Assembly: GCA_021372415.1 (NCBI GenBank)
Contig: JAJFUM010000373.1
Coordinates: 902 to 64,901, forward strand
Direction of reading: 5' to 3'
Origin: Deltaproteobacteria bacterium
GTDB lineage: Bacteria > Desulfobacterota > Syntrophia > Syntrophales > UBA5619
DNA: 64,000 nt
The notes under the pieces: model-generated
What the model was told of the DNA's origin: nothing
Seen by the model: the letters and a program-made list of their open reading frames with translations, nothing else
Databases searched by the model: none
Position numbers and translations under genes: made by a program
Shown: in pieces, positions 10,052-63,271 of the stretch
Position numbering within the stretch: the stretch's first letter is position 1
Layout of the letters: each line of letters begins with the position of its first letter

Positions 10052-10170
10052 AAAATTAAGGACTTTCAGGAGACTCACGCGGAATGCCCCCGGATTTCCA
10101 CTGTTGAAGAACGGGCCCCGGCAGTCAAAGCCGGAATCCCGGCGACCATTGAATCGACAAGGGTACAGGT

Positions 10171-13053: not shown

Positions 13054-13075
13054 CGGGGCGCATTGGAACCCGGTG

Positions 13076-14248: not shown

Positions 14249-14358
14249 GGATCGACATCCCCCAGAAAGATGGATAGCATCGCTCCGGCCGTTGCCGCCC
14301 GGAGGCGTTCGCTTCCGGGACCTCTGGGATGTGGAGTTCCCAGCGCGGGGAGTGGATC

Positions 14359-15534: not shown

Positions 15535-15638
15535 GGATCGACATCTCCGGTGAAGCTTGGTAGCATTCCCCGCGGTTGGAACTCCTTCCGGCGGCTCTGA
15601 TCTCCGGGACGGAGATCCGGGTTTTCTGCGAGGCATCC

Positions 15639-16457
15639 ATGGCCGAACTGCCTGAGGGCGAGATTCATCTTTGGCTGGCCTTTACCGGCGCGGGAGAGGC
15701 CTCGGTCTCGATGGACGCGGTCCGCAGGCTCCTCGATGCCGACGAGTCCGCCCGGATGGAGCGAATCCGCCTTCCCGGGGACCGCGAGCTTTTCGGGACG
15801 AGCCGTTTTCTGCTCCGGTCGGCCCTTGCCCATTACACGGGCATCAGTCCGGAGACCTGGCGGTTCCTCCGGGACGGCCGCGGCAAGCCGAGGATCGATC
15901 CCCGGAGCGGTCCCGCCTCGCTTCGATTCAGCATTGCCCACACCTCGGGACTGGCGGTGGTGGCCCTGGCCGCTGGCCGGGAGATCGGCGTGGATGTAGA
16001 GAGGGCGGACCGATCCCTGGATGCCGGGAGGCTGGCCCGGCGGTTCTTCTCGGCAGGCGAGCGCGCCGAACTGGAGGCCCTGCCGCCGGAGGGGCGGCGC
16101 GAGGGCTTCGTCCGCACCTGGACCCTGAAGGAGGCCTACCTCAAAGCCGTCGGCCGCGGCCTCACCCTCTGCCTGGACACCTTCGCCTTTCGCCTGACCG
16201 GCGAGCGGCCCTGGTCGATTGTCTTTTCCGGGGAGGGAGAAGGGGCGGACGAAGGGTGGCGCTTCGCTCTGGCCGAACCCCGGCCGCCCTACATGGTCGC
16301 CCTGGCTGCGGTCCCCGGCGGGCCTGGGGTCCTGAGGGTGCGGTGCCGGCGTCTCCTGCCGGATGGGGGCACGGGCCCTGTCCCCTGCGAACCCCTGGGC
16401 TGGTCCGAGGGGGTGGCGTTTCGGTTCGATGGTCCAGAAGACGACAGGCATGGATAG
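15639..16457 (+). CDS. Sfp-type 4'-phosphopantetheinyl transferase
   Basis: Motifs GRGKPRI, FSIAHTSG, GVDVE, WTLKEAYLKAVG. Start ATG 15639 (MAELPEGEIHLW) inside the longer ORF 15576. Confidence 0.85.
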   Translation: MAELPEGEIHLWLAFTGAGEASVSMDAVRRLLDADESARMERIRLPGDRELFGTSRFLLRSALAHYTGISPETWRFLRDGRGKPRIDPRSGPASLRFSIAHTSGLAVVALAAGREIGVDVERADRSLDAGRLARRFFSAGERAELEALPPEGRREGFVRTWTLKEAYLKAVGRGLTLCLDTFAFRLTGERPWSIVFSGEGEGADEGWRFALAEPRPPYMVALAAVPGGPGVLRVRCRRLLPDGGTGPVPCEPLGWSEGVAFRFDGPEDDRHG

Positions 16458-16513
16458 GATCAGGCAGGCGGCCCGGCGGCGGGCCGGGGCGGGCAAGGAG
16501 GACTAAGCGGACC

Positions 16514-17311
16514 ATGAGGAAGACGATCGTCCAGTTGTACGAAATCCAGGACCCGCGGGAAGCGGAGCGGCTCGTCGAGATGGGGGTGGACCATATCGGG
16601 AGCGTGCTTCTCTCCCTGGAAGGGTGGAAGGTCCCCGCCATCCGGGACGTCTGCCGCCTGGTCGGGTCCTCGCCCGCCAAGAGCAGCCTGATCCCACTTT
16701 TCACAGGGGCTGACGACATCCTGCGCGCCCTGGACTACTACCAGCCCGCCCTCGTCCATTTCTGCGAACTCATCCCTCTGGCGGCCTCCGATCAGGCCCG
16801 CCGGGAGGCCTGCCTGGCCGACCTGGTCCGGACCCAGGAGCGGGTCAAAAGGGAGTTTCCGCCGGTCGGGATCGTCCGGTCGATCCCTGTGCCGGCGGCG
16901 GCCCCGGCCGATCCGGCCCCTGCCCGGGAGGCGATCCTCCAGATCGTCCGGAGCCTGGGGCCGCACAGCGACTTCTTCATGACCGACACCCTCCGCGGTT
17001 CCGTGGAGGGCGGGGATACCCAGCCGGTCGAGGGGTATGTCGGGATCACGGGGGAGACTTGCGACTGGGAACTGGCTGCGGCACTCATCGAGGCGAGCCC
17101 GATCCCCCTGATCCTCGCCGGAGGGATCGGCCCCGAAAACGCCTTCGAGGCGGTCAGCCGGCTCCGTCCCGCCGGGATCGACAGCTGCACCCGAACCAAC
17201 GCCCGCGATCCTCTGGGGAGGCCCGTCCGGTTTCGGAAGGACCTGGAACGTGTCCGTCGGCTCCTGGACGAGGTCGAAAGGGCGGAGGAGGGGCTCCGGG
17301 CAGCGCGGTAG
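16514..17311 (+). CDS. divergent phosphoribosylanthranilate isomerase (TrpF)-family TIM-barrel protein
   Basis: AAGGAGG RBS before ATG 16514. C-terminal GITGETCDWELAAALIEASPIPLILAGGIGPENAFEAV...GIDSCT mirrors the TrpF GGTG..FDW...P.ILAGGL.PENV...GVDVSSG pattern. The N-terminal half is divergent and no trp genes are adjacent. Confidence 0.55.
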   Translation: MRKTIVQLYEIQDPREAERLVEMGVDHIGSVLLSLEGWKVPAIRDVCRLVGSSPAKSSLIPLFTGADDILRALDYYQPALVHFCELIPLAASDQARREACLADLVRTQERVKREFPPVGIVRSIPVPAAAPADPAPAREAILQIVRSLGPHSDFFMTDTLRGSVEGGDTQPVEGYVGITGETCDWELAAALIEASPIPLILAGGIGPENAFEAVSRLRPAGIDSCTRTNARDPLGRPVRFRKDLERVRRLLDEVERAEEGLRAAR

Positions 17312-35647: not shown

Positions 35648-36526
35648 ATGAATGATGAAACTGAAGAGTTGAATAAGAGACAGTGGCAGGATTTTTTTCA
35701 GGGATATTCCGCTGATTGGAACCATCTGTATGAAGGGACGAGTTACGATTCTTATGGAAAACGATTTCGTGCAAAATATGCCATGGATTTTGTGGACAAA
35801 TATATTTCATCCGGCAAAAGAGTTCTCGATATCGGATGCGGAACCGGATGGGTATCCTGTGCCCTTGCCCGTAAAGGGTATGAGGTGACGGGGGTTGATT
35901 TTTCGGCAAAGATGCTTGAGGTTGCCGATAAGAATGCCCATCAGATGGGGGTTGATTCACGATGCTCTTTCATATTGGGAGAAATTGATAAGCTAAAAAT
36001 AAAAGAAAACCAGTTTGATGCAATCATAGCCCTGGGGTATTTGGAGTATATTTTAGACCCCCAACCCGTTGTCAGCGAAATGTACAGATTGCTGGCCCCG
36101 TCAGGAATTGTGGTGGCTCAGATATGGAATCGCATCCGGATGGTTCAGCTGTTTAATTTCAAAGAAGGCCCGGGACGGATAGCGAATCCCCATGGGGTAT
36201 ACTTAAAAATACTTAAATGGATTCAGATGGTTCGTAAATCTGATGTCGGCCATCCGGTTTCTTCTGGACTTAAGCAGCCAGGGTTAATGAGAAAGTGGTA
36301 CACCCCATCGATGCTTGACAGAACGATGCACCAAGCCGGTTTTTTGAAACATGAGCATAGGGGGCATCTTTTTAGCGGGTTCAAGTATGGGGATCGACTT
36401 ATTTTTTCAGATAAAACCACCATACTTTTAGAGAATGGGCTGGTTCGGTTGAGTCAACTCATTTTATTTAAAAAAATGCAATTGCTGGGCGAAAATTATA
36501 TTGCCGTATACCATCGTCCCAAGTGA
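35648..36526 (+). CDS. class I SAM-dependent methyltransferase
   Basis: Motif I VLDIGCGTGWVS with acidic post-I GVDFS. Lies in low-GC DNA. Confidence 0.85.
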   Translation: MNDETEELNKRQWQDFFQGYSADWNHLYEGTSYDSYGKRFRAKYAMDFVDKYISSGKRVLDIGCGTGWVSCALARKGYEVTGVDFSAKMLEVADKNAHQMGVDSRCSFILGEIDKLKIKENQFDAIIALGYLEYILDPQPVVSEMYRLLAPSGIVVAQIWNRIRMVQLFNFKEGPGRIANPHGVYLKILKWIQMVRKSDVGHPVSSGLKQPGLMRKWYTPSMLDRTMHQAGFLKHEHRGHLFSGFKYGDRLIFSDKTTILLENGLVRLSQLILFKKMQLLGENYIAVYHRPK

Positions 36527-36692
36527 AAGTTATGGATTGACCATTAAGGTTGGTAGGTATAAGAAGCATAAATCAGCAACTCCTTTTTTGTAAATCCAAT
36601 ATCGAGAACCCCTACAAAGCAGATAGCGTAGCCCCTGGGAATATTGGCAATCTTCATTCTGAAGCGACCTGTTCAGGTTTATGGGGGACAAG

Positions 36693-37733
36693 ATGAAAAA
36701 GGTAAGAACGACCATCAAATCTGCATTAAAGAGGACTCAGCTGTTTAAGCTTCTTGCTCCTTGGTATTCTGGCAGCGGAAGCATTTTAATGTTCCACCGG
36801 ATTTGTAGAAAAGAAGAAAAATCTTTTTTCTTGAACAATTCTGCCCTTGAAATCACTCCGGAATATCTCGAGGCGATCATTCTCTCTTTTAAAAAGAGGG
36901 GGTATGTTTTTGTGCCTATAGGGGATGTTCCGCGGATTTTAAATATCCACCAAAAGCAGAAGTTTGTTGTTTTCACTTTTGATGACGGATACTTGGATAC
37001 TTATGCTTTGGCATATCCCATTTTTCGCAAGTATAAGGTTCCATTCACCATCTATGTCACGACGTCCTTTCCAGATGGTGATGCCGTGTTATGGTGGTAT
37101 ATGCTGGATGCGCTTGTGATACAAAATAGAACGGTCGAATTTGATCTTGATGGAACGCATTATGGCTTTAATTGCTGCGACAATCAAAGCAAAGAGATGA
37201 CATTTATGGCAATTCAAAAAATTATTCAAAGCAGTAATCCTTCCCATTTTTCGAACGTCGTAGAGGCTGTGTTTGCAAAAAATGGAATCGATCGGCGGGC
37301 GACATCCGACAGGTTTGCAATCGGTTGGGAGAGTCTCATCGCAATGTCGAAAGACAAACTAGTAACGATCGGCGCACATACGGTGAACCATTTCTCGCTG
37401 AAAAATCTTTCAGAAGAAGAATTGAATAGCGAATTGCTGCTTTCGAAAAACAGAATAGAATCTAAAATCGATTTGCCGGTAAAGGCATTTTCGTATCCCT
37501 TTGGCGGAATAAACGAGGCGGGTTTAAGAGAGTTTGATGCTGTAAAAAGGGCGGGTTTTGAAACAGGGGTCACAACGAGACAGACAAATGTATTCAAGCA
37601 GCATAAATCCTATCTCACGTCGTTACCCAGAATAAATATTGATGGAAATATTGAGAGTTTTGCGAAGATTGAGTATGAATCAGGGTTTCTTCCGTTCTAC
37701 CGGGCGGGGTGTAAGGGGTTTGTGGCGGACTGA
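36693..37733 (+). CDS. polysaccharide deacetylase (NodB/CE4) family protein
   Basis: FTFDDGYLDTY, HTVNH, YPFG motifs. GGGGGA RBS before ATG 36693. Lies in low-GC DNA. Confidence 0.85.
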   Translation: MKKVRTTIKSALKRTQLFKLLAPWYSGSGSILMFHRICRKEEKSFFLNNSALEITPEYLEAIILSFKKRGYVFVPIGDVPRILNIHQKQKFVVFTFDDGYLDTYALAYPIFRKYKVPFTIYVTTSFPDGDAVLWWYMLDALVIQNRTVEFDLDGTHYGFNCCDNQSKEMTFMAIQKIIQSSNPSHFSNVVEAVFAKNGIDRRATSDRFAIGWESLIAMSKDKLVTIGAHTVNHFSLKNLSEEELNSELLLSKNRIESKIDLPVKAFSYPFGGINEAGLREFDAVKRAGFETGVTTRQTNVFKQHKSYLTSLPRINIDGNIESFAKIEYESGFLPFYRAGCKGFVAD

Positions 37734-48614: not shown

Positions 48615-50069
48615 TTACTTCGCCTTGGCCTCAGGTGCCGCTGGCGGCTTCACGCTCTCCGGCATCGGCTCGATGCCATATTTCCACTTGAGGTACTGCT
48701 CGCCCGTTGCCGGGTAGAGACTGTAGACCAGCAGGTCTTCCTCGGTCTTGGCCAGATCGCCGATCTTCTGCTTGTTCGCTTCCATTTCCGGCTCCAGATA
48801 ATCGGCGGGACGGCCGGTTACGGGGGTCTGGCCTCTCTTGTGCCGTTTCAGGACCACCTTGGAGATCTCCGGATCGATTGGGGTCGGGGTCTTTCCATAG
48901 AGGCCGTAGACGAGGTCGGCGAACTGGTTGTTCACCATCTTGTAGCGACCGGCGACCACGTTCATGACGGCCTGGACGCCGACGATCTGGGATGTCGGGG
49001 TGACCAGGGGCGGCGTACCGGCATCCTTCCTGGTCCTCGGGATCTCGGCGTAAACCTCGTTCAGACGATCCAGAGCGTTCATTTCCTTGAGCTGGCTGAC
49101 CAGGTTGGAGATCATCCCGCCAGGGATCTGGTGGGCCAGAACGCCCGCGTCGATCAGGGAGAGCTTGTTCGTGGCCAGGTGTTTCTGATACTTGGGGGCG
49201 ATCTTCTCGAGGTGCGCCCCAAGGGCGATGAGCTTGCGTACGTCAAGACCGGTATCACGCTTGGTCCCCTGCAGGGTGACAACGAGCGGCTCGATGGCGG
49301 GCATCGAGGTCCTCAGGGCATAGGGAGCCAGACAGGTGTCCACGATGTCGATCCCAGCTTCGATGGCCTTGATGTAGGTCATCGAAGCCATGCCGCTGGT
49401 GTAGTGGGTGTGGAGATGCAGGGGGACCTTGGTGATCTTCTTGAGTTCGGTGACCAGGGTGTAGATGTCGTAGGGTGACACGATCCCGGCCATGTCCTTG
49501 ATGCAGATGCTGTCAACGCCCATCGCCTCGAGCGACTTGGCCATCTTGATGTAGTAATCCAGGTTGAAGACGTCGCCGCCCATCCGGGGCTCCGTCAGGG
49601 AGTAGCAGATCACGCCCTCGAAGTGTTTCTTGTTGGCCTTGATCCGCTCCACGCAGGTCTCGAAGTTCCGGATGTCGTTCAGGGCGTCGAAGACCCGGAA
49701 GATGTCGATTCCCACCTCGCAGGACTTGTCCACGAAGGCCCGCACCACGTCATCGGCATAGTTCCGGTAACCGACCAGGTTCTGCCCCCTCAAGAGCATC
49801 GTAAAAGGGGTCTTCTTGATATACTTCTTCAGGACTTTTGGCCTTTCCCATGGGTCCTCACCGAGGAAGCGGTGCATCGTGTCGAAAGTCGCCCCGCCCC
49901 AAACCTCCATCGCCCAGAAACCCATTTCATCCATCTGTTCGGCGATGGGAAGCATGTCCTCTGTACGCATGCGGGTCGCGTAGATGGACTGATGACCGTC
50001 GCGGAAAGTGTTGTCCTGAATTTTTACGGGATTGACAGGTCCATCCTTCATGATATCCGCCATCTTCAT
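48615..50069 (-). CDS. carboxyltransferase (transcarboxylase 5S / oxaloacetate decarboxylase alpha / pyruvate carboxylase B type) without biotinyl domain
   Basis: NTFRDGHQS, MEVWGGATFD, KDMAG motifs. The protein ends ...PAAPEAKAK with no AMKM biotin-attachment domain. The start may be the third codon (ATG 50063), given the AAGGAG position. Confidence 0.9.
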   Translation of the reverse strand: MKMADIMKDGPVNPVKIQDNTFRDGHQSIYATRMRTEDMLPIAEQMDEMGFWAMEVWGGATFDTMHRFLGEDPWERPKVLKKYIKKTPFTMLLRGQNLVGYRNYADDVVRAFVDKSCEVGIDIFRVFDALNDIRNFETCVERIKANKKHFEGVICYSLTEPRMGGDVFNLDYYIKMAKSLEAMGVDSICIKDMAGIVSPYDIYTLVTELKKITKVPLHLHTHYTSGMASMTYIKAIEAGIDIVDTCLAPYALRTSMPAIEPLVVTLQGTKRDTGLDVRKLIALGAHLEKIAPKYQKHLATNKLSLIDAGVLAHQIPGGMISNLVSQLKEMNALDRLNEVYAEIPRTRKDAGTPPLVTPTSQIVGVQAVMNVVAGRYKMVNNQFADLVYGLYGKTPTPIDPEISKVVLKRHKRGQTPVTGRPADYLEPEMEANKQKIGDLAKTEEDLLVYSLYPATGEQYLKWKYGIEPMPESVKPPAAPEAKAK

Positions 50070-50186: not shown

Positions 50187-50202
50187 AGCAATAATGGTGC
50201 CA
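50187..50202 (-). promoter_or_regulatory. sigma54 promoter TGGCAC-N5-TTGCT
   Basis: Reverse complement of 50187..50202 reads TGGCACCATTATTGCT, a full consensus match. Lies about 120 nt upstream of the carboxyltransferase start. Confidence 0.65.
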
Positions 50203-56103: not shown

Positions 56104-58665
56104 TCAGAACGTCCGAAACACCTCATAGAGGATCAGAACCGTCATACCAAGCCCGATTAGCACACTGGCGATCCCGAACACACCCGCGAAGAACTGGATC
56201 CCGGTACCCGGGCCATTGCACTTGATCTCTTCGAGCCGGTTTTCCAGCAGGATGCGTTGGAACTCCAGGGGCCGCTCTTTCTTCAGGGCCTCCAGGGTGT
56301 AGGTCCCGGTGAAGATGTTCCTCTCCAGGGGGAACTTGTCCGGAACGAGGTGGTTATTGAAGAAATGGATCGTAAAAATGAACACCGCCGCCAGGAAGGC
56401 CTCTTCGGAATGGGCTAGGTGCACGATATTGATCATCCAGCCCGGCATGACATGGGAGAAAAGCTCGGGCAGCCACATGATCAGACCGGAGCCCCCGATG
56501 ACGAACATGCCCCAGAAGACGGCCAGAAAATCGAATTTTTCCCAGTAGGTCCAGCGGTCGAACCGGGGTTTTTCCCCCCGGTTGAGGAACCATTTGAACA
56601 TGCCGATGCAGTCCTCGATATCCTTGGGCCGCGGGAACAGCGAATCGGGGCCTAAGAGCCTTCCCAGCCACCCCTTGAACCTGAATCCCGGGAAGAGGAA
56701 CTTGACCGACAGCCAGCAGGTATAGAGGAACAGGGCGATCATGGCCGCGGCACTGATGCGGTGAATGAGGGCCGCGCCTTCGATGCCCCCCATCAGCCTG
56801 ATGAATGATTGCGCCCAGGGGGCGTCCGTATATTTGACCGGGAAACCCGAGAGCACCAAGCCGAAGAAGGACACGATGAGGATCACGTGCATGATCCTCT
56901 CCTTCACGCCGAACCGCCGGACATACTGGCTGCGTTTGGTTTCGGACAGATCGGTCTTTTCCGCAACGCCCATCCGGATGAGGCGGCTGCTTTCCGCGTA
57001 GGACTTTCGCCACCAGAGAAGCGAGTGGGTCCAGAAGAACATGAAAACCCCGGCCAGCAGCGCGATCATGAATTTCTTGGTCAGGTACAGCGAGAAGAAT
57101 CCCTTGGGGTTGTCCGGATCCGGGTGGGGCACGTAGGAGACAAAACGCGGGTGGAAATTGTGATGACAGTTCCCGCAGGTCTTCACGAGGGCCTCGGGAT
57201 TCAATCCCGATGACGGGTTGTCCGCGGGCAGGATGTTGTGGCCGAGATGACAGTCCGTGCAGCCGGCAACCTTGTCGAGATACCCCAGATTCTTGGCTTT
57301 GCCGTGATACGTTTCGCCGTAATCCCTGGTAATCCCTTGGAAGGTGCCGTAGTTTCCGGCGACGCCGCCTTCCCGGTGGCAGGAGATGCAAATACCCGTG
57401 TAAAATTCCCTTTTTTTCGCCTTTTCATCTCGATCCCGGGGGAAGAACGGCATGGCGTGCGTCTTGTGGCAGTCGTTGCATGCCGCGGCATCCCTGTTCC
57501 CTGCCAGGACTTTGGCACCGTGCCCCTTGTTGACGAACCGGTCGGTGTCCTTGTGGCACTTGAGGCAGGAGGTGATCACGGCGACCTTGTCCCCCTTGCC
57601 CTTGACGGCTTTTTCCGGGTGAATGTCGTCGTGGCAAGCCAGACAGGAGAGCTTTGCCGCAATGGCGTGGTAACTCTTTTCATACGTCTTGGCCGTATCC
57701 TTGTGACAGACCGCGCAAGAGACGGGTTCCGGCTTCTTACCCTCCTTTTTCATGTGCATCCTGAGGTCCTTGATGCCCTGGTGACAGGTGGCACAGTCCA
57801 AGGTCCCGTGGGCTGTTTGGGAAAAGTGCTTCCGGTATTTGGGTGCCGAATGGCAGGTCGTGCAATCCGGCGTCCCGAGGGAAACGGACGGCGTGGCCGC
57901 CTTTGCCGGCTCTGTCTTGGCCGGTGACGGCGACCGGGATTCGCGGGGATGGATGCCGCCATGGCACTGGTTGCAGGAGAACTTCTGCAGGTCCTTGTGA
58001 AGCCCCTTTTCCAGGATTCTGCTGTGGCAGTTGAGGCAGGGTGCCGTTACGGAAGGCTGTTTGCCCTGCATGTGCTTGGGAATCTCGTTCACGCCCGTGT
58101 GGCAGGCGGTACACCCCAGCGCCCCGTGCTTGGTCGCTGAAAAGTATTGATTGTATTCCGGCTTGGCGTGGCAGGCTGTGCATTTGGGGGCCGGGGCAGT
58201 TGTCTTGAGGGCGTCGGATTTGCCGGGGAGTCGGGCGTCCCCATCGGTTTTTTTGTCAGCTCCGGCGGGTGAGACGGCGGCGGGAACATTGGAGGGCTTC
58301 TCCGAGCCGCCGGGGCCCTGAACGGGATCGGCTACAGGGGGTTCCGAGAGCATGCGGACATGGTTCACAGGAATCCTGTCTTTGAGGGGGCCCTTGTCGT
58401 TCTTGTGGCACATGAGGCATTGCTGCCATTTCATGGTCCCTGTGTCGATGTGGCTCTCCGGAAGGACGGGCTTGCCGGAATGGCAGGCCTTGCACTGGCC
58501 CGGCTTTGCATCGTCAGGCGCCGCCGCCCATGCCAGGCCGCTCCAGGCGATCAGAACGATGCACAGGATCAGCGTAGAGGTGAAGAATCGCGAAAAAAGA
58601 CCCCGCCGATTATTGCCATTCAAATGCACTGATTTTTCTCCCTGATTCAGATCATATTTTGTCAA
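56104..58665 (-). CDS. fusion of a 15-haem c-type cytochrome domain and a HydC/FdnI-type dihaem cytochrome b membrane domain (CbcL-like)
   Basis: Signal anchor and 15 CxxCH motifs, then about 6 TM helices with His in RIMHV, LIHRIS, VHLAHSEE, IHFFNNH. The ORF opens with TTG at 58665. GTG 58629 has a GGGAGA RBS and may be the true start. Confidence 0.85.
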   Translation of the reverse strand: MTKYDLNQGEKSVHLNGNNRRGLFSRFFTSTLILCIVLIAWSGLAWAAAPDDAKPGQCKACHSGKPVLPESHIDTGTMKWQQCLMCHKNDKGPLKDRIPVNHVRMLSEPPVADPVQGPGGSEKPSNVPAAVSPAGADKKTDGDARLPGKSDALKTTAPAPKCTACHAKPEYNQYFSATKHGALGCTACHTGVNEIPKHMQGKQPSVTAPCLNCHSRILEKGLHKDLQKFSCNQCHGGIHPRESRSPSPAKTEPAKAATPSVSLGTPDCTTCHSAPKYRKHFSQTAHGTLDCATCHQGIKDLRMHMKKEGKKPEPVSCAVCHKDTAKTYEKSYHAIAAKLSCLACHDDIHPEKAVKGKGDKVAVITSCLKCHKDTDRFVNKGHGAKVLAGNRDAAACNDCHKTHAMPFFPRDRDEKAKKREFYTGICISCHREGGVAGNYGTFQGITRDYGETYHGKAKNLGYLDKVAGCTDCHLGHNILPADNPSSGLNPEALVKTCGNCHHNFHPRFVSYVPHPDPDNPKGFFSLYLTKKFMIALLAGVFMFFWTHSLLWWRKSYAESSRLIRMGVAEKTDLSETKRSQYVRRFGVKERIMHVILIVSFFGLVLSGFPVKYTDAPWAQSFIRLMGGIEGAALIHRISAAAMIALFLYTCWLSVKFLFPGFRFKGWLGRLLGPDSLFPRPKDIEDCIGMFKWFLNRGEKPRFDRWTYWEKFDFLAVFWGMFVIGGSGLIMWLPELFSHVMPGWMINIVHLAHSEEAFLAAVFIFTIHFFNNHLVPDKFPLERNIFTGTYTLEALKKERPLEFQRILLENRLEEIKCNGPGTGIQFFAGVFGIASVLIGLGMTVLILYEVFRTF

Positions 58666-58869
58666 TATTCCGTATGGGGCTATTTCGGATCAACCCTCAA
58701 CCCGTGCCTCGCCAGCTTTGCGGCGCGGGAATATACGACGAAATGCCGGGTGGCGCAAGCCCGGACCTCGCGACAGTCAAGAATATTCACTTGACAATTT
58801 TTAAAAACAAAGATAGCGCAGCTAAGTTTTTTGAAATCCAAACGGAGACAGTACCAGAAAGTGAGACCC

Positions 58870-59256
58870 ATGAAGAACCGTTGTTGTAAGAAGCATGCGT
58901 GTTGGTTTGTCGTCTTGGCATTGTTCTTGGTGGTCGGCGCCATGGTGCCCCGGATGCAGGATCGGGCCTGGGCCCAGGGGCAGGACAAATTTCTTGCTGA
59001 CCGTCACCAGGCCAGAGGAGCAAATTGTGCAGCCTGTCACAGGGAAAACCCGCCCAAGGATGTCGCTTCCTCCGAGGCCTGCATAACGTGTCACGGTAAC
59101 ATGGGGAAGGTGGCCGCGAAGACCGTCGACGCCAAACCCATCAATCCCCATGACTCCCATCTGGGGGAGATCGCCTGCGACCAGTGCCACAAGGGCCACA
59201 AGGCCTCGGTGAACGCTTGTGCCCAGTGCCATCCGTTCGAATTGAAGGTTCCGTAA
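58870..59256 (+). CDS. periplasmic tetrahaem cytochrome c (flavocytochrome c3 N-terminal-domain type)
   Basis: Signal peptide and 4 CxxCH motifs (CAACH, CITCH, CDQCH, CAQCH). Spacing and flanks match the Shewanella Fcc3 haem domain by eye. Confidence 0.85.
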   Translation: MKNRCCKKHACWFVVLALFLVVGAMVPRMQDRAWAQGQDKFLADRHQARGANCAACHRENPPKDVASSEACITCHGNMGKVAAKTVDAKPINPHDSHLGEIACDQCHKGHKASVNACAQCHPFELKVP

Positions 59257-59285
59257 ACATTTTAAGGAAAGGGAGAAGATGAAAA

Positions 59286-60911
59286 ATGAGTGAACAGAAA
59301 AAAATTACGCGTCGAGGATTCATGGTCGGCGCCGTGGCAACCGGAGGGGCCATAGCCGGTGCGGCAGTGCTGAGCGGTGAGGCTTTGGCGAAAGGAACTC
59401 CCCCGGCCATGCCGAAGAAATGGGACAAGGAAGCGGATGTGGTCTGTATCGGTTACGGCGGGGCGGGGGCGGCGGCGGCCATCTCGGCGCATGACGCCGG
59501 CGCGAAGGTCCTCATCCTGGAAAAAATGCCCCAGGGAGGCGGGAACACAGCCGTCTCAGCCGGCGGGTTCCTTTGTCCGAAGAACGTTCCCGATACCCTG
59601 ACATATATCAAGGCCCTGTTCTCCTTTTCCAAGTCCGAAATGGACGAGGAATTGGTGAAGGTCTACGCCGAGGAGTCGGTCAAGAACGTGGATTGGGTCA
59701 AGAGCCTCCGGGAGGGAACGGAGGTGATCGTTTATGGCGGCGCCGGTTTCGGCCATGTCCCGGGGGCCAAGGCGATGAACAAGTACTCCGTTGTGGGCAA
59801 GGGCAAGGGGATGGGCGGCGGCTCCGACAACCTTTGGGAACTGCTCAGCTACGCCGTGGAACAGAAACGGAAGATCCCGGTCATGCTTGAGACGCCCGCC
59901 AAGCGGCTCGTGACCAACGCCAAAGGCGAGGTGGTCGGCGTCATCGCCCTCTCAAAGGGCAAGGAAATCGCGATCAAGGCGAAAAAGGGCGTCGTCCTGA
60001 CGACGGGCGGGTACGAATTCGACACCAAGACCCTCCAGAGTTCCGTCAAGGGCTTCCCGATCTACGCTTTGGGAAACCCGGGCAACACCGGGGACGGGAT
60101 CCGGATGGCCCAGAAGGTCGGGGCGGGGCTCTGGCACATGAACGGCGTCTCCTGTCCCCTGGGGATCAAGGTCCCCGGGTTCGAGGCGGCCTTCTTCATG
60201 AACATCAGCGTGCCGGGTTTCATCTATGTGGACCGGCACGGCAAACGCTTTGTCAATGAGAAATCCATCGAAGTCCACGCCGGCCTACTGGCCATGGATT
60301 TCTTTGACGGCCACGCCCTCGAGTATCCCCGTATCCCTTGCTACGCCATCTTCGACGAGACGACCCGGCTTAAGGGCCCCATCACCGCGTCCGGAGGCCA
60401 AGGCTACAACCTCAAGCGGCTCCACAAGTGGAGCAAGGACAATGCCGACGAGATCCAGAAGGGGTGGATCATCAAGGGCGACACAATCGAGGATTTGGCC
60501 AAGAAACTGAAGATGGAACCTGAAGTCCTGGCGGGAACTCTGAACCGCTGGAACGAGGACATAAAGAAGGGCGAGGACAGCCAGTTCCACCGGCCTATCA
60601 ATGCCCCGAAATCGGACAACCCGGCCTACAAGGAACTCGTGACGGCGGCCTGGTCCGAACCGATCGAAAAGGGGCCCTTCTACGCCCTGGAGCTCTATCC
60701 GAGCCTACTCAACACGCAGGGGGGGCCGCGGCGTAACACCAAGGCGCAAATTCTGGATGCCTTCGGCGAGCCGATTCCCAGGCTCTACAGTGCCGGCGAG
60801 CTGGGCTCCATGTGGGGCATCATTTACCAGGGGGCGGGCAACATCGGCGAGTGTTTCGTGTACGGGCGCATAGCCGGAAAGAACGCCGCGGCGGACAAGG
60901 CCTGGAAGTAG
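59286..60911 (+). CDS. Tat-exported FAD-dependent oxidoreductase (FAD_binding_2 superfamily, KstD-like rather than fumarate reductase-like)
   Basis: Twin-arginine signal KKITRRGFMVGA...ALA. Dinucleotide fold DVVCIGYGGAGAAAAISAHDAGAKVLILEK. C-terminal LYSAGELGS...YQGAGNIGECFVYGRIAG. AAGGGAGAAG RBS. Confidence 0.85.
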   Translation: MSEQKKITRRGFMVGAVATGGAIAGAAVLSGEALAKGTPPAMPKKWDKEADVVCIGYGGAGAAAAISAHDAGAKVLILEKMPQGGGNTAVSAGGFLCPKNVPDTLTYIKALFSFSKSEMDEELVKVYAEESVKNVDWVKSLREGTEVIVYGGAGFGHVPGAKAMNKYSVVGKGKGMGGGSDNLWELLSYAVEQKRKIPVMLETPAKRLVTNAKGEVVGVIALSKGKEIAIKAKKGVVLTTGGYEFDTKTLQSSVKGFPIYALGNPGNTGDGIRMAQKVGAGLWHMNGVSCPLGIKVPGFEAAFFMNISVPGFIYVDRHGKRFVNEKSIEVHAGLLAMDFFDGHALEYPRIPCYAIFDETTRLKGPITASGGQGYNLKRLHKWSKDNADEIQKGWIIKGDTIEDLAKKLKMEPEVLAGTLNRWNEDIKKGEDSQFHRPINAPKSDNPAYKELVTAAWSEPIEKGPFYALELYPSLLNTQGGPRRNTKAQILDAFGEPIPRLYSAGELGSMWGIIYQGAGNIGECFVYGRIAGKNAAADKAWK

Positions 60912-60965
60912 GCCAAGGTGGGACCGCCCTTCAGCGGCCTGCTCTGCGGACGTAAAAAAAGGAAA

Positions 60966-60999
60966 GGCCGCAGCGTCGAAAAGGCGCTGCGGCCTTTTT
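60966..60999 (+). terminator. rho-independent terminator of the cytochrome/flavoprotein operon
   Basis: GGCCGCAGCG-(9 nt)-CGCTGCGGCC perfect 10-bp GC stem followed by TTTTT. Confidence 0.85.
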
Positions 61000-61680
61000 C
61001 GGCGCCAGCCCCGGTGTATATGGCCTTCGCCCGGAGTGTGGCCAGGTGGCCCAGGACAGCCAAACCTTGGTGGGGAGCCCCCCGTGCATGATGCGCAGAG
61101 GCCATTTCCCCTCACTAATCTGACCGTTCAGACCGTCAGTCATTGATCGAAGGCGAATCCCTCTAAGGAAAGAATATTGAAAATTTTCTAACAGATCTGT
61201 CTTGACCGCCTCTCCCGCCACCTGTGTTACCAGATATTTGACCCCGCCCCGGTCTCTGCCCCCTTTGACGCGGCGATGAGATCCTGCACCGCGAGCGTGA
61301 TGGAGCCAGCGCGGCCGGCCTGCACGAGAGGACTGCGGGCCGGAAGATGCTGATCAATGTTTCTTGAGGACCACAGAACGTGCAGGTGAAAAACGCATGA
61401 CCAACGGTGCCCCGGTGTCGACCTCGGCGAGACGATCAACTTCTGTCACGGCACAAACCCCGCCAGGGTGCCCCAGGTTGATTTCGAGGTATATCCTTTG
61501 CTCCATTAAGAAGGGATCGTCCAACCTACCTGGCAAAGAATAAGAACCTTGCCTATCTCCGTTCATGGCCCCATCGTCATGTCGGACAGCGTAATGGATG
61601 GGTTGGATTTCGAGCTGTTTGCTTATCGGGGAGGGGAGGGGATTTTGAAGACCACAGTGGCGAGGGTACTCTCAAAACGA

Positions 61681-61830: not shown

Positions 61831-62329
61831 AAGATTTAGGGGTGGGTCGGAGCGAGACGCGCCGTCCTGTGGTTACCCGGAGGCGGTTTTTCATTACCGG
61901 GATTTTTCAAGTGTTGAATTTTTTTCAAAAAATTTGTTACCCATATGTCGACCCTCCCCCTCTCTACTACACTCAGCCGGATATTTGACCGCCCCCCGGG
62001 GTCATCGAACTCTCAAGGAGCGCGCCCGGTGAAGGGCGCGGCGCGACCCCGCGCTCAGTTCGTGTCGTCCCGTGCTTGTGTCAATGCACCACGGTTCGCC
62101 AGGGGCTCGCATATGTGGGGCATAGTGTGCGCACCCTGTTGCCTTGAGAAGGCTAAAGGCGCGACTTATTGTGAGGGGCAGGGTGTTGCGTTCGCTAAGA
62201 AGCGGCTACTGATTTTCTATCTGTAAAATTTGCGATACTCTTCCGCATTGTCTTTTACACACCTTCCGCTATCCTTTACCTAAGTAAAGTCCGACTTATT
62301 TCAAACCCCCAAACGAAAGGAGACAGAAC

Positions 62330-63271
62330 ATGGCCGTCATCGAGATTGAAAAACCAAAGACGTACAATTATGTGTTCAGCTCGTACCTGAAACCCGTCGC
62401 CCGAGTGAAACCCGGCGACACCGTGATCATGAACACGGAAGACGCATGCGAAGGAAGAATCCAGACCGCCGCTGACCTGCCCAAGAAGGCGTTGTCCAGT
62501 GTCGCCTTCCTCAATCCACAGACGGGGCCGATCTATGTGGAGGGAGCCGAGCCGGGCGACACCATTGCCATAAAAATCGTGAAGATCGAGCCGACTACGA
62601 ACCAGGCCTTCAGCGCATTCGCTGAGTTTTTCGGAGGCCTCTCTTCCGGGCCTTTTACCCGCACGCTCCAGGAGCCTCTGAAGGAAAAAGTTTGGATTTG
62701 GAAGCTTAAAGATGGAAAGGATGGAAAATACTACATCAACGATGAAATCCGGGTCAAGGTTCCCTTCGAACCGTTTGTCGGCACGCTTGCCACGGCCCCG
62801 AAGCTGGAGGCAATCTCCTCCTTAACCCCGGGCCCCTTCGGCGGCAACCAAGACGTTCCGGACGTTAGACCTGGCAACACAGTCTATCTGCCCGTCTTCA
62901 ACCCTGGTGCGCTGGTCTTCACCGGCGACTGTCATGCCCATCAGGGTCAAGGGGAACTCTGCGGCTTCGCACTGGAGATCCCGGCAAGGGTTACCCTCAC
63001 TTTCGACCTCATCAAGAAGAAGGCGATTGCCTGGCCACGGATCCTCTCCCCGGACAAGATCATGACGATCGCAAGTGCCAGACCTATGGAAGATGCCGCC
63101 CGCATTGCTAATGTGGAGCTCTGTCTGTGGATGGAAGAAGAGTTCGGCTTCACGAGATGGGAGGCTTACGAACTCCTCACGCAGGTCGGCGGCCTCTACG
63201 TGGGGAATATGGTCGATACGTTCTACTCTCTCGTGGCGAGTATCGAAAAGAAGTACCTCGTTCGCGAATAA
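62330..63271 (+). CDS. acetamidase/formamidase (FmdA/AmdA) family protein
   Basis: AAAGGAGAC RBS. Family pattern GPIYVEGAEPGDTIAIKI, GGNQDV, VYLPVFNPGALVFTGDCHAHQGQGELCG. Confidence 0.85.
   Translation: MAVIEIEKPKTYNYVFSSYLKPVARVKPGDTVIMNTEDACEGRIQTAADLPKKALSSVAFLNPQTGPIYVEGAEPGDTIAIKIVKIEPTTNQAFSAFAEFFGGLSSGPFTRTLQEPLKEKVWIWKLKDGKDGKYYINDEIRVKVPFEPFVGTLATAPKLEAISSLTPGPFGGNQDVPDVRPGNTVYLPVFNPGALVFTGDCHAHQGQGELCGFALEIPARVTLTFDLIKKKAIAWPRILSPDKIMTIASARPMEDAARIANVELCLWMEEEFGFTRWEAYELLTQVGGLYVGNMVDTFYSLVASIEKKYLVRE

What the first reader, a model, noticed from the sequence alone, without database searches (positions are those of the whole stretch)
56104..60911. Respiratory island: 15-haem c / dihaem b fusion cytochrome divergent from a split flavocytochrome whose flavoprotein is not a fumarate reductase
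Seen in the sequence:
(i) 56104..58665(-) is one polypeptide. It has a signal anchor and 15 CxxCH motifs (CKACH, CLMCH, CTACH x2, CLNCH, CNQCH, CTTCH, CATCH, CAVCH, CLACH, CLKCH, CNDCH, CISCH, CTDCH, CGNCH). A C-terminal domain of about 330 aa has about six helices with His in RIMHV, LIHRIS, VHLAHSEE and IHFFNNH. That is a HydC/FdnI-type dihaem cytochrome b.
(ii) Divergently, 58870..59256 encodes a 4-haem cytochrome that aligns by eye with the N-terminal haem domain of Shewanella flavocytochrome c3. 59286..60911 encodes a twin-arginine (TRRGFM) FAD protein of the same superfamily, closed by a strong terminator.
(iii) In my by-eye alignment, all four fumarate-binding or catalytic residues of Fcc3 (His365, Arg402, His504, Arg545) are replaced. 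AHPT becomes SCPL, EAVRGNGAIL becomes NISVPGFIYV, HHTMGG becomes LNTQGG, and GANRLGGN becomes IYQGAGNI. The C-terminus looks KstD-like.

Established knowledge: a b-type quinol-oxidising domain fused to a multihaem c domain is the CbcL architecture of Geobacter (nine haems there, from memory). Tat-exported flavoprotein plus cytochrome pairs serve as periplasmic reductases for organic acceptors such as fumarate, methacrylate, urocanate and cardiac glycosides.

Inference: this is a self-contained chain from quinol pool to 15-haem wire to tetrahaem c to periplasmic flavoenzyme. It acts on an unknown, non-fumarate substrate, and the direction could equally be oxidative. It was probably acquired horizontally, since IS debris lies on its left and degraded repeat-rich DNA on its right.
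Basis: partly seen in the sequence, partly recalled or inferred. Interest (0 to 1): 0.75.

Follow-up and report, generated by a model that had tools for sequence, protein, structure and literature searches.

The report
Membrane cytochrome wired to periplasmic flavoenzyme
Three adjacent genes in an uncultured Syntrophales-like bacterium probably link the membrane quinone pool, through a 15-haem CbcL-type cytochrome and a small four-haem adaptor, to an exported flavoenzyme that is not a fumarate reductase and whose substrate is unknown; every part belongs to a known family, but this combination does not seem to have been described.

Summary
56104..58665(-) encodes a cytochrome with 15 CxxCH motifs fused to an FdnI-type dihaem-b membrane domain. 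58870..59256(+) encodes an Fcc3-type tetrahaem cytochrome. 59286..60911(+) encodes a Tat-exported FAD protein, followed by a strong terminator.

- **Fusion protein.** It is a CbcL/MtrH/MtoC-family member. It has the nine-haem, six-helix CbcL core plus six extra N-terminal haems, four of them from an internal duplication.
- **Flavoprotein.** It lacks every Fcc3 catalytic or binding residue and is structurally closest to KstD, AcmB and cyclohexanone dehydrogenase. It keeps their Tyr/Gly carbonyl-polarising pair but has Glu329/His331 at the catalytic acid/base position.
- **Functional link.** Ten of eleven contexts of close cytochrome homologues carry adjacent Tat flavoproteins. In relatives without a separate tetrahaem gene, that tetrahaem domain is fused into the bc cytochrome (a Rosetta-stone fusion).
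- **Scope of the cytochrome.** The neighbouring flavoproteins are diverse, and one homologue pairs with a molybdoenzyme, so the cytochrome looks like a general quinone-pool hub.
- **Horizontal transfer.** Not supported.
- **Open questions.** Substrate and direction are unknown; reduction of an unsaturated carbonyl or carboxyl compound is favoured.

Verdict: a new variant of known kinds, of moderate interest.

The parts
56104..58665 (-). Gene A: bc-type cytochrome of the CbcL/MtrH/MtoC family. It has 15 c-haem motifs plus an FdnI-type dihaem-b membrane domain. The ORF runs from TTG at 58665; the likely true start is GTG at 58629 (841 aa).
   Evidence: - ORF and 15 CxxCH.
- Homologue starts and the 841-aa P0121.
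- Pfam PF14522, PF14537 and PF01292.
- Motif spacing and helix layout are collinear with an annotated cbcL (PMC6295460 Table S2).
58366..58518 (-). N-terminal two-haem segment of A (residues ~50-100; CKACH at 58, CLMCH at 83), preceded by a Sec-type signal sequence ending ...AWA/AAP.
   Evidence: - Motif positions.
- The segment is conserved in 15- and 19-haem relatives and absent from 9-haem forms.
- The signal cleavage site is read from the sequence by inspection.
57937..58227 (-). Duplicated four-haem module of A (residues 147-243; haems 3-6).
   Evidence: Internal BLASTP aligns residues 147-243 with 253-353: 37% identity over 102 aa, E 6e-24.
57151..57909 (-). Nine-haem CbcL core of A (residues 253-505; CxxCH at 268, 291, 317, 341, 367, 396, 426, 469, 497).
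   Evidence: - All nine motifs are invariant in alignment A2.
- Motif spacing is 23-26-24-26-29-30-43-28, against 23-25-23-24-29-28-43-28 in Desulfuromonas cbcL.
56107..57108 (-). Membrane domain of A (residues 520-853): six helices with an FdnI/HydC-type dihaem cytochrome b core. Proposed haem ligands are His593 with His767 (cytoplasmic side) and His635 with His752 (periplasmic side). His547 and His772 are further invariant residues.
   Evidence: - Hydropathy.
- PF01292 and TIGR01583 matches.
- Invariant His residues.
- AlphaFold model with pLDDT 86.
- Foldseek gives FdnI 1kqf_C as the only significant match.
- The ligand pairing is inferred from topology by analogy with FdnI.
58630..58869 (.). 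Divergent intergenic region between A and B. It holds a palindrome, GTCAAGaatattcaCTTGAC, at 58776-58795 that overlaps a TTGACA hexamer and is a candidate operator.
   Evidence: - Sequence and pattern scan.
- No sigma54-type site lies in this region.
- Function is not tested.
58870..59256 (+). Gene B: Sec-exported tetrahaem cytochrome c of the Fcc3 N-terminal-domain type (128 aa). It is the proposed adaptor between A and C.
   Evidence: - 4 CxxCH and PF14537 at E 2e-18.
- Aligns with residues 5-96 of 1d4c at E 1e-11.
- Homologous to a domain fused into 15- and 19-haem relatives of A, E 1e-11 to 1e-19.
59286..60911 (+). Gene C: Tat-exported FAD flavoprotein (541 aa) of the FAD_binding_2 superfamily with a KstD/CDH-like fold. 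Its active-site signature is Cys290, Glu329, His331, Asn476, Gln478, Tyr514, Gly518. It starts 29 nt after the stop of B.
   Evidence: - PF00890; no NCBIfam equivalog reaches its cutoff.
- Alignments to Fcc3 and AcmB.
- Model with pLDDT 86.7 and Foldseek results.
- Signature conservation across relatives.
59286..59393 (+). Twin-arginine signal peptide of C (residues 1-36: ...KKITRRGFMVGAV...ALA/KG).
   Evidence: - Read from the sequence.
- pLDDT is below 50 for residues 1-38.
- RR motifs are present in periplasmic relatives and absent in signal-less ones.
- tatA lies inside the operon in L164, L165 and L167.
60961..60999 (+). Intrinsic terminator closing the B-C operon: a 17-bp stem flanked by an A-run and a U-run, so possibly bidirectional.
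   Evidence: - Fold of -32.3 kcal/mol, z -5.4, with 0 of 200 shuffles folding as well.
- Homology with relative L081 ends exactly here.

Best explanation
**What it is.** The three genes encode a quinone-pool-linked periplasmic redox chain.

**How it is proposed to work.**
1. Gene A is an expanded CbcL-type bc cytochrome. Its FdnI-like dihaem-b domain exchanges electrons with (methyl)menaquinol. The site is probably near the cytoplasmic-side haem (inferred by analogy with FdnI). Electrons cross the membrane through the two b haems.
2. A then passes the electrons along 15 c haems: the nine-haem CbcL core, a duplicated four-haem module and two N-terminal haems.
3. Gene B is a soluble Fcc3-type tetrahaem cytochrome. 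It acts as the adaptor that docks onto the flavoprotein, as the N-terminal haem domain does within Fcc3.
4. Gene C is exported already folded, with FAD bound, by the Tat pathway. It most likely reduces the C=C bond of an alpha,beta-unsaturated carbonyl or carboxyl compound other than fumarate.
5. In C, Tyr514 and the Gly518 backbone would polarise the carbonyl, and Glu329 (with His331) would act as proton donor in place of Fcc3 Arg402 or the KstD tyrosine.

**Scope.** The cytochrome is probably a shared hub for several periplasmic oxidoreductases, not a dedicated partner.

**Shown here:** the domain identities, the residue replacements, the gene co-occurrence and the fusion.

**Inferred:** the docking order, the quinone site, the direction of electron flow and the chemistry.
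For: - **Domain identities:**
- **CbcL core:** collinear with an annotated cbcL. A 19-haem Syntrophus relative is already listed in the family survey (PMC6295460 Table S2).
- **Co-occurrence:** close homologues of A (46-95% identity) have Tat flavoproteins directly adjacent in the window itself and in L081, L083, L164, L167, L168, L169, L170 and L171. L165 has a tetrahaem gene and tatA at a contig edge. Only L166 has a molybdoenzyme instead. By contrast, only 2 of 80 more distant 9- and 19-haem family members have a flavoprotein nearby.
- **Rosetta stone:** B aligns with residues ~94-182 of the fused 15- and 19-haem relatives at E 1e-11 to 1e-19 and has no match in window-type proteins. The four fused contexts have no separate tetrahaem gene beside the flavoprotein next to the bc cytochrome. 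Four of five non-redundant unfused contexts with a flavoprotein do have one.
- **Export and maturation:** tatA and resB/ccsA lie inside these clusters.
- **Flavoprotein residues:** the Fcc3 residues are replaced. Tyr514 and Gly518 align with AcmB Tyr536 and Gly540. Glu329 aligns with both Fcc3 Arg402 and AcmB Tyr363.
- **Flavoprotein fold:** closest to AcmB, CDH and KstD1, TM 0.74-0.77.
- **Precedent for reduction:** all characterised cytochrome-coupled, Tat-exported relatives are reductases, namely Mrd/Mcc (PMC4427408), ArdAB (bioRxiv 10.1101/2024.02.11.579808), and UrdA, Cgr2 and Cir/Crd (bioRxiv 10.1101/2022.12.26.521950). CirC needs a Glu and a Tyr for activity.
- **Regulation in relatives:** periplasmic-sensor kinases with sigma54 activators, plus a porin-like gene, flank the clusters. 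This fits induction by an external substrate.
- **Thermodynamics (established knowledge):** enoate and enone couples lie above the menaquinone couple, so reduction is the downhill direction.
Against: - There are no experimental data, and the substrate is unknown.
- The fold class (KstD, AcmB, CDH) consists of dehydrogenases that work oxidatively.
- Orthologous B/C pairs exist with no bc cytochrome within 10 kb (L001, L082). None of 80 genome loci with homologues of C had one.
- One unfused bc cytochrome has an adjacent flavoprotein but no tetrahaem gene (L170).
- The cytochrome also pairs with a molybdoenzyme (L166), so adjacency does not prove specificity.
- Many members of the flavoprotein clade have no signal peptide and are presumably cytoplasmic, so the chemistry is not intrinsically respiratory.
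- The window itself has no regulator, tatA or resB/ccsA next to the genes.
- Direct alignment with G. sulfurreducens CbcL (GSU0274) was not possible.
Confidence: 0.55

Rival explanations
1. Same chain run in reverse. C is a periplasmic KstD/CDH-like desaturase that oxidises a saturated ketone or acid. It sends electrons through B and the 15-haem cytochrome to reduce (methyl)menaquinone, as proposed for MtoC-type family members.
For: - The fold of C is closest to the oxidative enzymes AcmB, CDH and KstD1.
- C keeps their Tyr/Gly pair.
- The CbcL/MtrH/MtoC family is proposed to work in both directions (PMC6295460).
- A 61%-identical cytochrome follows a type-II-like molybdoenzyme with a NarJ-like chaperone. 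That class includes periplasmic hydroxylases, by established knowledge.
Against: - The catalytic-base tyrosine of the KstD class is replaced by Glu329.
- Oxidising a C-C bond next to a carbonyl (couple near 0 mV) with menaquinone (about -74 mV) is uphill.
- With an FdnI-type orientation it would also work against the membrane potential. Both thermodynamic points are inference from established knowledge.
- All characterised Tat flavoprotein plus cytochrome c pairs are reductases.
Confidence: 0.22
2. A is unrelated in function to B and C. It is an extracellular-electron-transfer quinol oxidase like Geobacter CbcL that happens to lie next to an independent flavocytochrome operon, which is served by another quinol dehydrogenase.
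For: - Most family members surveyed sit next to other multihaem cytochromes, not flavoproteins (78 of 80).
- B/C orthologues occur without A nearby.
- A and B-C are transcribed divergently, so they are not one operon.
Against: - The specific subfamily of A is next to Tat flavoproteins in 10 of 11 contexts, in four different gene orders.
- The tetrahaem adaptor domain is fused into the cytochrome in relatives.
- No outer-membrane conduit genes and no other cytochrome genes are present anywhere in the 64-kb window.
Confidence: 0.08
3. C is an ordinary periplasmic fumarate reductase (split Fcc3).
For: - Fcc3 is the best pairwise PDB hit by sequence, E 8e-42.
- B is Fcc3-like.
- JGI annotates relatives as succinate dehydrogenase/fumarate reductase flavoprotein.
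Against: - His365, Arg381, Arg402, His504 and Arg545 are all replaced, and the replacements are conserved across the clade.
- The score against TIGR01813 is 200.9, below the 285 cutoff.
- The fold is closer to KstD and CDH.
Confidence: 0.02

Closest known systems
CbcL (GSU0274) of Geobacter sulfurreducens and the CbcL/MtrH/MtoC family
   Same: - N-terminal periplasmic multihaem c domain fused to a six-helix HydC/FdnI-like dihaem-b domain.
- The nine-haem core and helix positions are collinear with an annotated cbcL.
- Close 19-haem Syntrophus relatives are listed as family members in PMC6295460 Table S2.
   Different: - Six extra N-terminal haems, four of them from an internal duplication.
- The genomic partners are Tat-exported flavoproteins and a tetrahaem adaptor, not extracellular-electron-transfer cytochromes.
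- No role in metal or electrode reduction is implied.
Two-subunit flavocytochromes c: Mrd/Mcc methacrylate reductase (G. sulfurreducens AM-1) and ArdAB acrylate reductase (Shewanella woodyi)
   Same: - A Tat-exported FAD_binding_2 subunit and a Sec-exported multihaem c subunit are encoded side by side.
- Both are periplasmic.
- The acceptor is not fumarate (PMC4427408; bioRxiv 10.1101/2024.02.11.579808).
   Different: - Those enzymes keep the Fcc3-type arginines for carboxylate binding and proton donation. The window protein has Glu329, Asn476 and Tyr514 at those positions.
- Their quinol dehydrogenase is not a CbcL-type protein encoded alongside.
Flavocytochrome c3 (Fcc3/FccA) of Shewanella
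   Same: - B aligns with its haem domain and C with its flavin domain.
- The wiring logic is the same: tetrahaem cytochrome to FAD.
   Different: - The window system is split into two polypeptides.
- All five fumarate-binding or catalytic residues are replaced.
- The capping domain is KstD-like.
- From my own knowledge, Fcc3 is fed by CymA (NapC/NirT type), not by a bc cytochrome.
3-Ketosteroid delta-1-dehydrogenases (KstD1 4c3x, AcmB 7p18) and cyclohexanone dehydrogenase (8am3)
   Same: - Best structural matches, TM 0.74-0.77.
- The profile search puts AcmB first, E 3e-54.
- The Tyr-x3-Gly pair that hydrogen-bonds the substrate carbonyl is conserved as Tyr514 and Gly518.
   Different: - The catalytic-base Tyr (AcmB 363, CDH 376) is Glu329.
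- The window protein is exported by Tat and paired with cytochromes.
- NCBIfam KstD equivalog scores fall far below cutoff, 217 against 789.
Gut-bacterial respiratory flavin reductases (Cir/Crd/Ird/UrdA; Cgr2 with Cgr1)
   Same: - The same superfamily.
- Clades without the Fcc3 arginines and with a conserved Tyr at the Arg545 position are documented.
- CirC needs Glu311 and Tyr511.
- Sutterellaceae and Coriobacteriia proteins 50-57% identical to C carry the same signature, with Tat signals and tetrahaem partners.
- B weakly matches the Cgr1 model.
   Different: - No characterised member was shown to be a close orthologue.
- The host is a Syntrophales-like environmental bacterium.
- The partner is a CbcL-type cytochrome.

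Membership tests
CbcL/MtrH/MtoC bc-cytochromes (as defined in PMC6295460) | N-terminal periplasmic domain with multiple CxxCH motifs (3-23 in the family) | tested here: met
   15 CxxCH between residues 58 and 501. Relatives have 9, 15 or 19.
CbcL/MtrH/MtoC bc-cytochromes (as defined in PMC6295460) | C-terminal half with six transmembrane helices | tested here: met
   Hydropathy peaks lie at 526-550, 587-609, 632-658, 714-732 and 828-846, plus the helix at 745-772. The AlphaFold model shows long helices throughout. After subtracting the 234-residue extension, the positions match Desulfuromonas cbcL.
CbcL/MtrH/MtoC bc-cytochromes (as defined in PMC6295460) | Membrane domain of the HydC/FdnI dihaem cytochrome b type with conserved His ligands | tested here: met
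   PF01292 scores 31.4 bits against a 30.1 cutoff. FdnI 1kqf_C is the only significant fold match, TM 0.79. His593, His635, His752 and His767 are invariant, and the His752-His767 spacing is 15, close to 14 in FdnI (the FdnI value is from my own knowledge).
CbcL/MtrH/MtoC bc-cytochromes (as defined in PMC6295460) | Sequence homology to CbcL, MtoC or MtrH templates | tested here: inconclusive
   GSU0274 was not available for direct alignment. The evidence is indirect but consistent. The nine-haem spacing and helix layout are collinear with annotated cbcL WP_066723557. The 57%-identical S. gentianae protein has the same layout as OPY82910.1, which the paper lists as a homologue. Nine-haem, ~620-aa homologues are 45-50% identical.
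CbcL/MtrH/MtoC bc-cytochromes (as defined in PMC6295460) | Menaquinol oxidation feeding periplasmic acceptors | not testable with these tools
   This needs genetics or biochemistry.
Two-subunit periplasmic flavocytochrome c (Mrd/Mcc, ArdAB, W. succinogenes Fcc type) | FAD_binding_2 flavin subunit with a twin-arginine signal peptide | tested here: met
   PF00890 at E 7e-48. TRRGFM motif in residues 8-13, with a disordered N-terminus in the model.
Two-subunit periplasmic flavocytochrome c (Mrd/Mcc, ArdAB, W. succinogenes Fcc type) | Adjacent Sec-exported multihaem cytochrome c homologous to the Fcc3 haem domain, in one operon | tested here: met
   B has 4 CxxCH and aligns with residues 5-96 of 1d4c at E 1e-11. 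There is a 29-nt gap between B and C and a single terminator after C. The pairing recurs in L001-L003, L082 and many Sutterellaceae loci.
Two-subunit periplasmic flavocytochrome c (Mrd/Mcc, ArdAB, W. succinogenes Fcc type) | Enoate-reductase catalytic set: Arg proton donor (Fcc3 Arg402) and an Arg/His carboxylate clamp (Arg545, His504) | tested here: not met
   Glu329, Tyr514 and Asn476 occupy these positions, and they are conserved across the clade.
Fumarate reductase (Fcc3/FccA) | His365, Arg381, Arg402, His504 and Arg545 | tested here: not met
   They are replaced by Cys290, Ser308, Glu329, Asn476 and Tyr514. TIGR01813 scores 200.9 against a 285.45 cutoff.
3-Ketosteroid delta-1-dehydrogenase / cyclohexanone dehydrogenase class | Two-domain KstD fold | tested here: met
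   The Foldseek top hits are 7p18, 8am3/6/8 and 4c3x with TM 0.74-0.77, against 0.59-0.68 for Fcc3.
3-Ketosteroid delta-1-dehydrogenase / cyclohexanone dehydrogenase class | Tyr and Gly pair that polarises the substrate carbonyl (KstD1 Tyr487/Gly491; AcmB Tyr536/Gly540; CDH Tyr570/Gly574) | tested here: met
   Tyr514 and Gly518 align with AcmB Tyr536 and Gly540. Both are at least 90% conserved.
3-Ketosteroid delta-1-dehydrogenase / cyclohexanone dehydrogenase class | Catalytic-base tyrosine (KstD1 Tyr318; AcmB Tyr363; CDH Tyr376) | tested here: not met
   AcmB Tyr363 aligns with Glu329, and His331 nearby is invariant.
3-Ketosteroid delta-1-dehydrogenase / cyclohexanone dehydrogenase class | Second tyrosine from the FAD domain (KstD1 Tyr119; CDH Tyr195) | tested here: inconclusive
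   That region (AcmB 104-221) was not aligned by HMMER. Tyr150 is nearly invariant in the clade, but its equivalence is unproven.

The most novel reading that the evidence does not exclude
Syntrophales-type bacteria use an enlarged CbcL-type bc cytochrome as a general periplasmic redox hub, with 15 to 19 haems and sometimes a built-in Fcc3-like adaptor domain. The hub would connect the (methyl)menaquinone pool to a varied set of Tat-exported flavoenzymes and molybdoenzymes. Organisms regarded as obligate syntrophs could then respire (or oxidise) a range of organic compounds. The window's flavoenzyme would represent an uncharacterised catalytic class found across phyla, with Glu-x-His in place of the catalytic Arg or Tyr, acting on a substrate type not yet assigned to this superfamily.
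Probability: 0.3. Interest if true: 0.65.

Novelty: new variant of a known kind. Interest (0 to 1): 0.5.

Why it matters
CbcL-family cytochromes are studied almost entirely as quinol oxidases for extracellular electron transfer to metals and electrodes. The evidence here suggests a different job for one subfamily. It appears to serve as the membrane module for soluble periplasmic reductases of organic compounds, the role CymA plays in Shewanella. The fusion of the adaptor domain supplies a testable docking order.

This also points to unrecognised respiratory flexibility in Syntrophales, a group central to methanogenic carbon turnover.

The flavoenzyme clade (Glu/His/Asn/Tyr signature) is widespread, including in the gut Sutterellaceae and Coriobacteriia. 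It has no assigned substrate, so one biochemical assignment would annotate thousands of genes.

Tried and rejected
- **IS debris and horizontal transfer.** Pfam found no transposase or integrase in the small ORFs of either flank. The flanks have no similarity to the rest of the window, to the fetched loci or to plasmids. GC3 is unremarkable. The left flank is syntenic with L081.
- **Structured RNA.** No Rfam family matched anywhere in the window.
- **Sigma54 promoter between A and B.** This was expected from the regulators in relatives, but none is there.
- **Paralogues or other cytochromes in the window.** None.
- **Exact look-up of the window's flavoprotein.** Not on record. The nearest record is an NCBI MAG labelled Deltaproteobacteria bacterium, with MCE5283514 and MCE5283516 on one 68-kb contig.
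- **Substrate clues from neighbours of signal-less homologues.** The neighbours are heterogeneous: acyl-CoA carboxylase, SDR, AOR.
- **Transfer of function from Sutterella homologues or CirC.** No reductase-to-gene mapping or sequence was available in the held text or supplement.
- **Terminator after gene A.** None is convincing.
- **Initial impression from the 80 genome loci.** These suggested that A is never near homologues of C. That impression was overturned once the contexts of A's own close subfamily were examined.

Full report
**1. What is in the sequence**

The three ORFs are at the stated coordinates.

Gene A (56104..58665, minus strand):
- It is 853 aa from a TTG start. Homologues and a 95%-identical 841-aa protein begin at the GTG at 58629.
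- It has exactly 15 CxxCH motifs.
- Its C-terminal ~335 residues form six helices.
- This domain matches PF01292 only marginally, 31.4 against 30.1 bits. An AlphaFold model built on 30 homologues (pLDDT 86) has E. coli FdnI as its only significant PDB match: 1kqf_C, TM 0.79 over FdnI, E 7e-5.
- His593, His635, His752 and His767 are invariant down to 36% identity. They sit where topology predicts the FdnI-type ligands of a cytoplasmic-side and a periplasmic-side haem (inference).
- His547 and His772 are also invariant and both lie at the predicted cytoplasmic face.

Gene B (58870..59256):
- It has a Sec-type signal and four CxxCH motifs.
- It aligns with the N-terminal haem domain of Fcc3 at E 1e-11.

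Gene C (59286..60911):
- It starts 29 nt after B and has a TRRGFM twin-arginine signal.
- It matches PF00890 at E 7e-48.
- It is followed by a 17-bp-stem terminator: -32.3 kcal/mol, z -5.4.

**2. The fusion cytochrome is a CbcL-family protein with an N-terminal extension**

A 2018 survey (PMC6295460) defines the CbcL/MtrH/MtoC family:
- an N-terminal multihaem c domain with 3-23 motifs;
- six C-terminal helices and a HydC/FdnI-like dihaem b;
- members in 15 phyla;
- proposed to act as either quinol oxidase or quinone reductase.

Evidence that A belongs there:
- In alignment A2 the last nine CxxCH motifs of A are invariant.
- Their spacing is 23-26-24-26-29-30-43-28. The Desulfuromonas cbcL in that paper's Table S2 has 23-25-23-24-29-28-43-28.
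- The helix positions match once the 234-residue extension is subtracted.
- The same table lists a 925-aa, 19-haem Syntrophus protein whose layout is that of S. gentianae P0141, which is 57% identical to A.

The extension:
- It consists of two haems followed by a four-haem block.
- The four-haem block is an internal duplicate of the first four core haems: 37% identity, E 6e-24.
- Among the 120 best homologues, haem counts cluster at 9, 15 and 19.

The 15-haem count is therefore a variant inside a known family, not a new architecture. I could not align GSU0274 directly, so that membership row stays formally inconclusive.

**3. The flavoprotein is not a fumarate reductase and is KstD-like**

Residue comparison with Fcc3, in pairwise and profile alignments:

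| Fcc3 residue | Window protein |
|---|---|
| His365 | Cys290 |
| Arg381 | Ser308 |
| Arg402 | Glu329 |
| His504 | Asn476 |
| Arg545 | Tyr514 |

"EAVRGNG" contains Arg381. The proton-donor Arg402 lies in "ITTRDKA", as shown by the Arg402 and Arg381 mutant entries.

Comparison with the KstD class:
- The position of Arg402 is also the position of the catalytic-base tyrosine (AcmB Tyr363). The window protein has Glu329 there, with invariant His331 two residues on.
- Tyr514 and Gly518 align with AcmB Tyr536 and Gly540. These correspond to CDH Tyr570 and Gly574, the pair that hydrogen-bonds the substrate carbonyl (PMC10966990).
- The AlphaFold model (pLDDT 86.7) is closest to AcmB, cyclohexanone dehydrogenase and KstD1 (TM 0.74-0.77). 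It is less close to UrdA and Fcc3 (TM 0.59-0.68).
- No NCBIfam equivalog reaches its cutoff.

Distribution of the signature [E/D]329, His331, Asn476, Gln478, Tyr514:
- It is conserved in relatives from Syntrophales, Nitrospirota, Coriobacteriia, Sutterellaceae, Chloroflexi, Actinobacteria and others.
- Some of these have a Tat signal and a neighbouring tetrahaem cytochrome.
- Many have neither and are presumably cytoplasmic.

Precedent in the literature:
- Clades of respiratory flavin reductases that lack the Fcc3 arginines and carry Tyr at the Arg545 position are already documented.
- One of them (CirC) needs a Glu and a Tyr for activity (bioRxiv 10.1101/2022.12.26.521950).
- The two-subunit layout (Tat flavin subunit plus Sec haem subunit) is characterised for methacrylate reductase (PMC4427408) and acrylate reductase.

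**4. Are the three genes functionally linked?**

Starting from C:
- None of 80 genome loci had a homologue of A within 10 kb, although many had a B-like tetrahaem gene adjacent.

Starting from distant members of A's family:
- Only 2 of 80 metagenome loci had a flavoprotein. Most sat beside other multihaem cytochromes.

The close subfamily of A tells a different story:

| Locus | Identity to A | Context |
|---|---|---|
| L081 | 95% | Same trio as the window |
| L164 | 70% | dCache sensor kinase, sigma54 activator, Tat flavoprotein, tetrahaem, porin-like gene, tatA, bc cytochrome |
| L165 | 70% | Tetrahaem, tatA, bc cytochrome, at a contig edge |
| L167 | 72% | Sigma54 activator, flavoprotein, tetrahaem, bc cytochrome, resB, ccsA, tatA |
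| L170 | 59% | Sigma54 system, flavoprotein, bc cytochrome |
| L083 | 45% | Flavoprotein 77-78% identical to C, bc cytochrome, resB-like gene |
| L168 | 46% | Three flavoproteins around the bc cytochrome |
| L169 (cultured S. gentianae) | 57% | Flavoprotein, then bc cytochrome |
| L171 | 48% | Flavoprotein, then bc cytochrome |
| L166 | 61% | Molybdopterin enzyme, FeS subunit and NarJ-like chaperone instead of a flavoprotein |

So 10 of 11 contexts, counting the window, couple this cytochrome subfamily to Tat flavoproteins, in at least four different gene orders.

**5. A Rosetta-stone fusion**

- B aligns with residues ~94-182 of the 19-haem forms and of the alternative 15-haem forms (P0129-P0159) at E 1e-11 to 1e-19.
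- B has no match in the window-type 15-haem proteins.
- The four fused-type contexts (L083, L168, L169, L171) have no separate tetrahaem gene beside the flavoprotein next to the bc cytochrome.
- Four of five non-redundant unfused contexts with a flavoprotein (window/L081, L164, L165, L167) do have one. L170 is the exception.

This argues that the B-type domain is the physical link between the bc cytochrome and the flavoprotein. The sample is small.

**6. The cytochrome looks like a hub, not a dedicated partner**

The flavoproteins next to these cytochromes fall into different active-site classes:
- the window type (Glu/His/Asn/Tyr);
- an Fcc3-like Arg/His/Arg type;
- a KstD-like Tyr/Tyr type.

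One homologue pairs with a molybdoenzyme. Orthologous B/C pairs also occur without the cytochrome nearby (L001, L082). The functional analogy is with CymA of Shewanella (from my own knowledge).

**7. Mechanism and direction**

Shown: the domain identities, the conserved residues, the co-occurrence and the fusion.

Inferred:
- electrons pass from the quinone site to the two b haems, then the nine core haems, the duplicated four, the N-terminal two, the B tetrahaem and finally FAD;
- Tyr514 and Gly518 polarise a substrate carbonyl or carboxyl group;
- Glu329 and His331 exchange the proton at the alpha carbon.

I favour reduction of an unsaturated, non-fumarate acceptor (confidence 0.55):
- every characterised Tat flavoprotein plus cytochrome pair is a reductase;
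- relatives are flanked by periplasmic-ligand sensor systems;
- enoate and enone couples lie above the menaquinone couple (established knowledge).

The oxidative reading (0.22) is kept alive by the dehydrogenase-type fold and by the proposed bidirectionality of the family. Coincidental adjacency (0.08) and ordinary fumarate reductase (0.02) are unlikely.

**8. Horizontal transfer**

- The left neighbour is an HMGL-family (isopropylmalate/citramalate/homocitrate synthase-like) gene, syntenic in L081.
- No transposase domains or repeats shared with other DNA were found in either flank.
- GC3 of A, B and C (0.78, 0.72, 0.81) lies within the local range.
- The right flank is a real breakpoint relative to L081, exactly after the terminator. 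It contains an unexplained 23-nt direct repeat. That shows local variability, not acquisition of the trio.

**9. Novelty**

- Each component belongs to a described family, and neither the haem count nor the Arg-less active site is unprecedented.
- Three things were not described in the papers I could search: the systematic pairing of a CbcL-type subfamily with Tat-exported flavoenzymes, the fused and separate forms of the tetrahaem adaptor, and the Glu/His/Asn/Tyr clade as such. That library is incomplete.
- I rate this a new variant of known kinds, interest about 0.5.

Noticed in passing
window 35648-37733: Two genes, a SAM-dependent methyltransferase and a polysaccharide deacetylase, have GC 0.42-0.43 and GC3 0.45. 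Elsewhere in the window GC3 is 0.70-0.88. This is a small, compositionally foreign islet.
   Followed up: partly
window 50187-50202 (-): The only perfect sigma54-type -24/-12 match in the window (TGGCACCATTATTGCT). It lies just upstream of the oxaloacetate-decarboxylase-alpha/pyruvate-carboxylase-B-like gene at 48615..50069(-).
   Followed up: no
window 61230-61252 and 61977-61999: A 23-nt direct repeat, CCRGATATTTGACCSCSCCCCGG, with copies 747 bp apart, in the 1.4-kb non-coding stretch right of the terminator. None is expected by chance. The 95%-identical relative L081 diverges from the window exactly at 60999 and carries a 494-aa gene with no Pfam hit there instead.
   Followed up: partly
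window 58776-58795: Palindrome GTCAAGaatattcaCTTGAC in the divergent A/B intergenic region, overlapping a TTGACA hexamer. It is a candidate operator for an unidentified regulator.
   Followed up: no
L166 5779-12493: A 61%-identical 15-haem bc cytochrome directly follows a molybdopterin oxidoreductase, a four-cluster FeS subunit and a NarJ-like chaperone, next to a sigma54 two-component system. The cytochrome may replace the usual membrane anchor of a periplasmic molybdoenzyme.
   Followed up: no
L164 1493-12502: One co-directional cluster holds a dCache_1 sensor kinase, a sigma54 activator, a Tat flavoprotein, a tetrahaem cytochrome, a Porin_2-like 416-aa protein (marginal score), tatA and a 15-haem bc cytochrome. 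The porin suggests uptake of an external substrate.
   Followed up: partly
L005 and L006 (Nitrospirota), around 9950-15250: Signal-less homologues of the flavoprotein (65-67% identical, same active-site signature) lie next to a biotin-dependent acyl-CoA carboxylase pair in both loci. This is a possible but unconfirmed substrate hint.
   Followed up: partly
L169 (Syntrophus gentianae) 14307-16657: A second Tat flavoprotein with Fcc3-type Arg/His/Arg residues is paired with a seven-haem, 239-aa cytochrome resembling Mcc of the methacrylate reductase system, 2 kb from the flavoprotein-bc pair.
   Followed up: no
window 62330-63271: An acetamidase/formamidase-family gene (PF03069, E 2e-34) lies to the right of the locus. 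It scores far below the FmdA equivalog cutoff and is absent from the syntenic relative L081.
   Followed up: no
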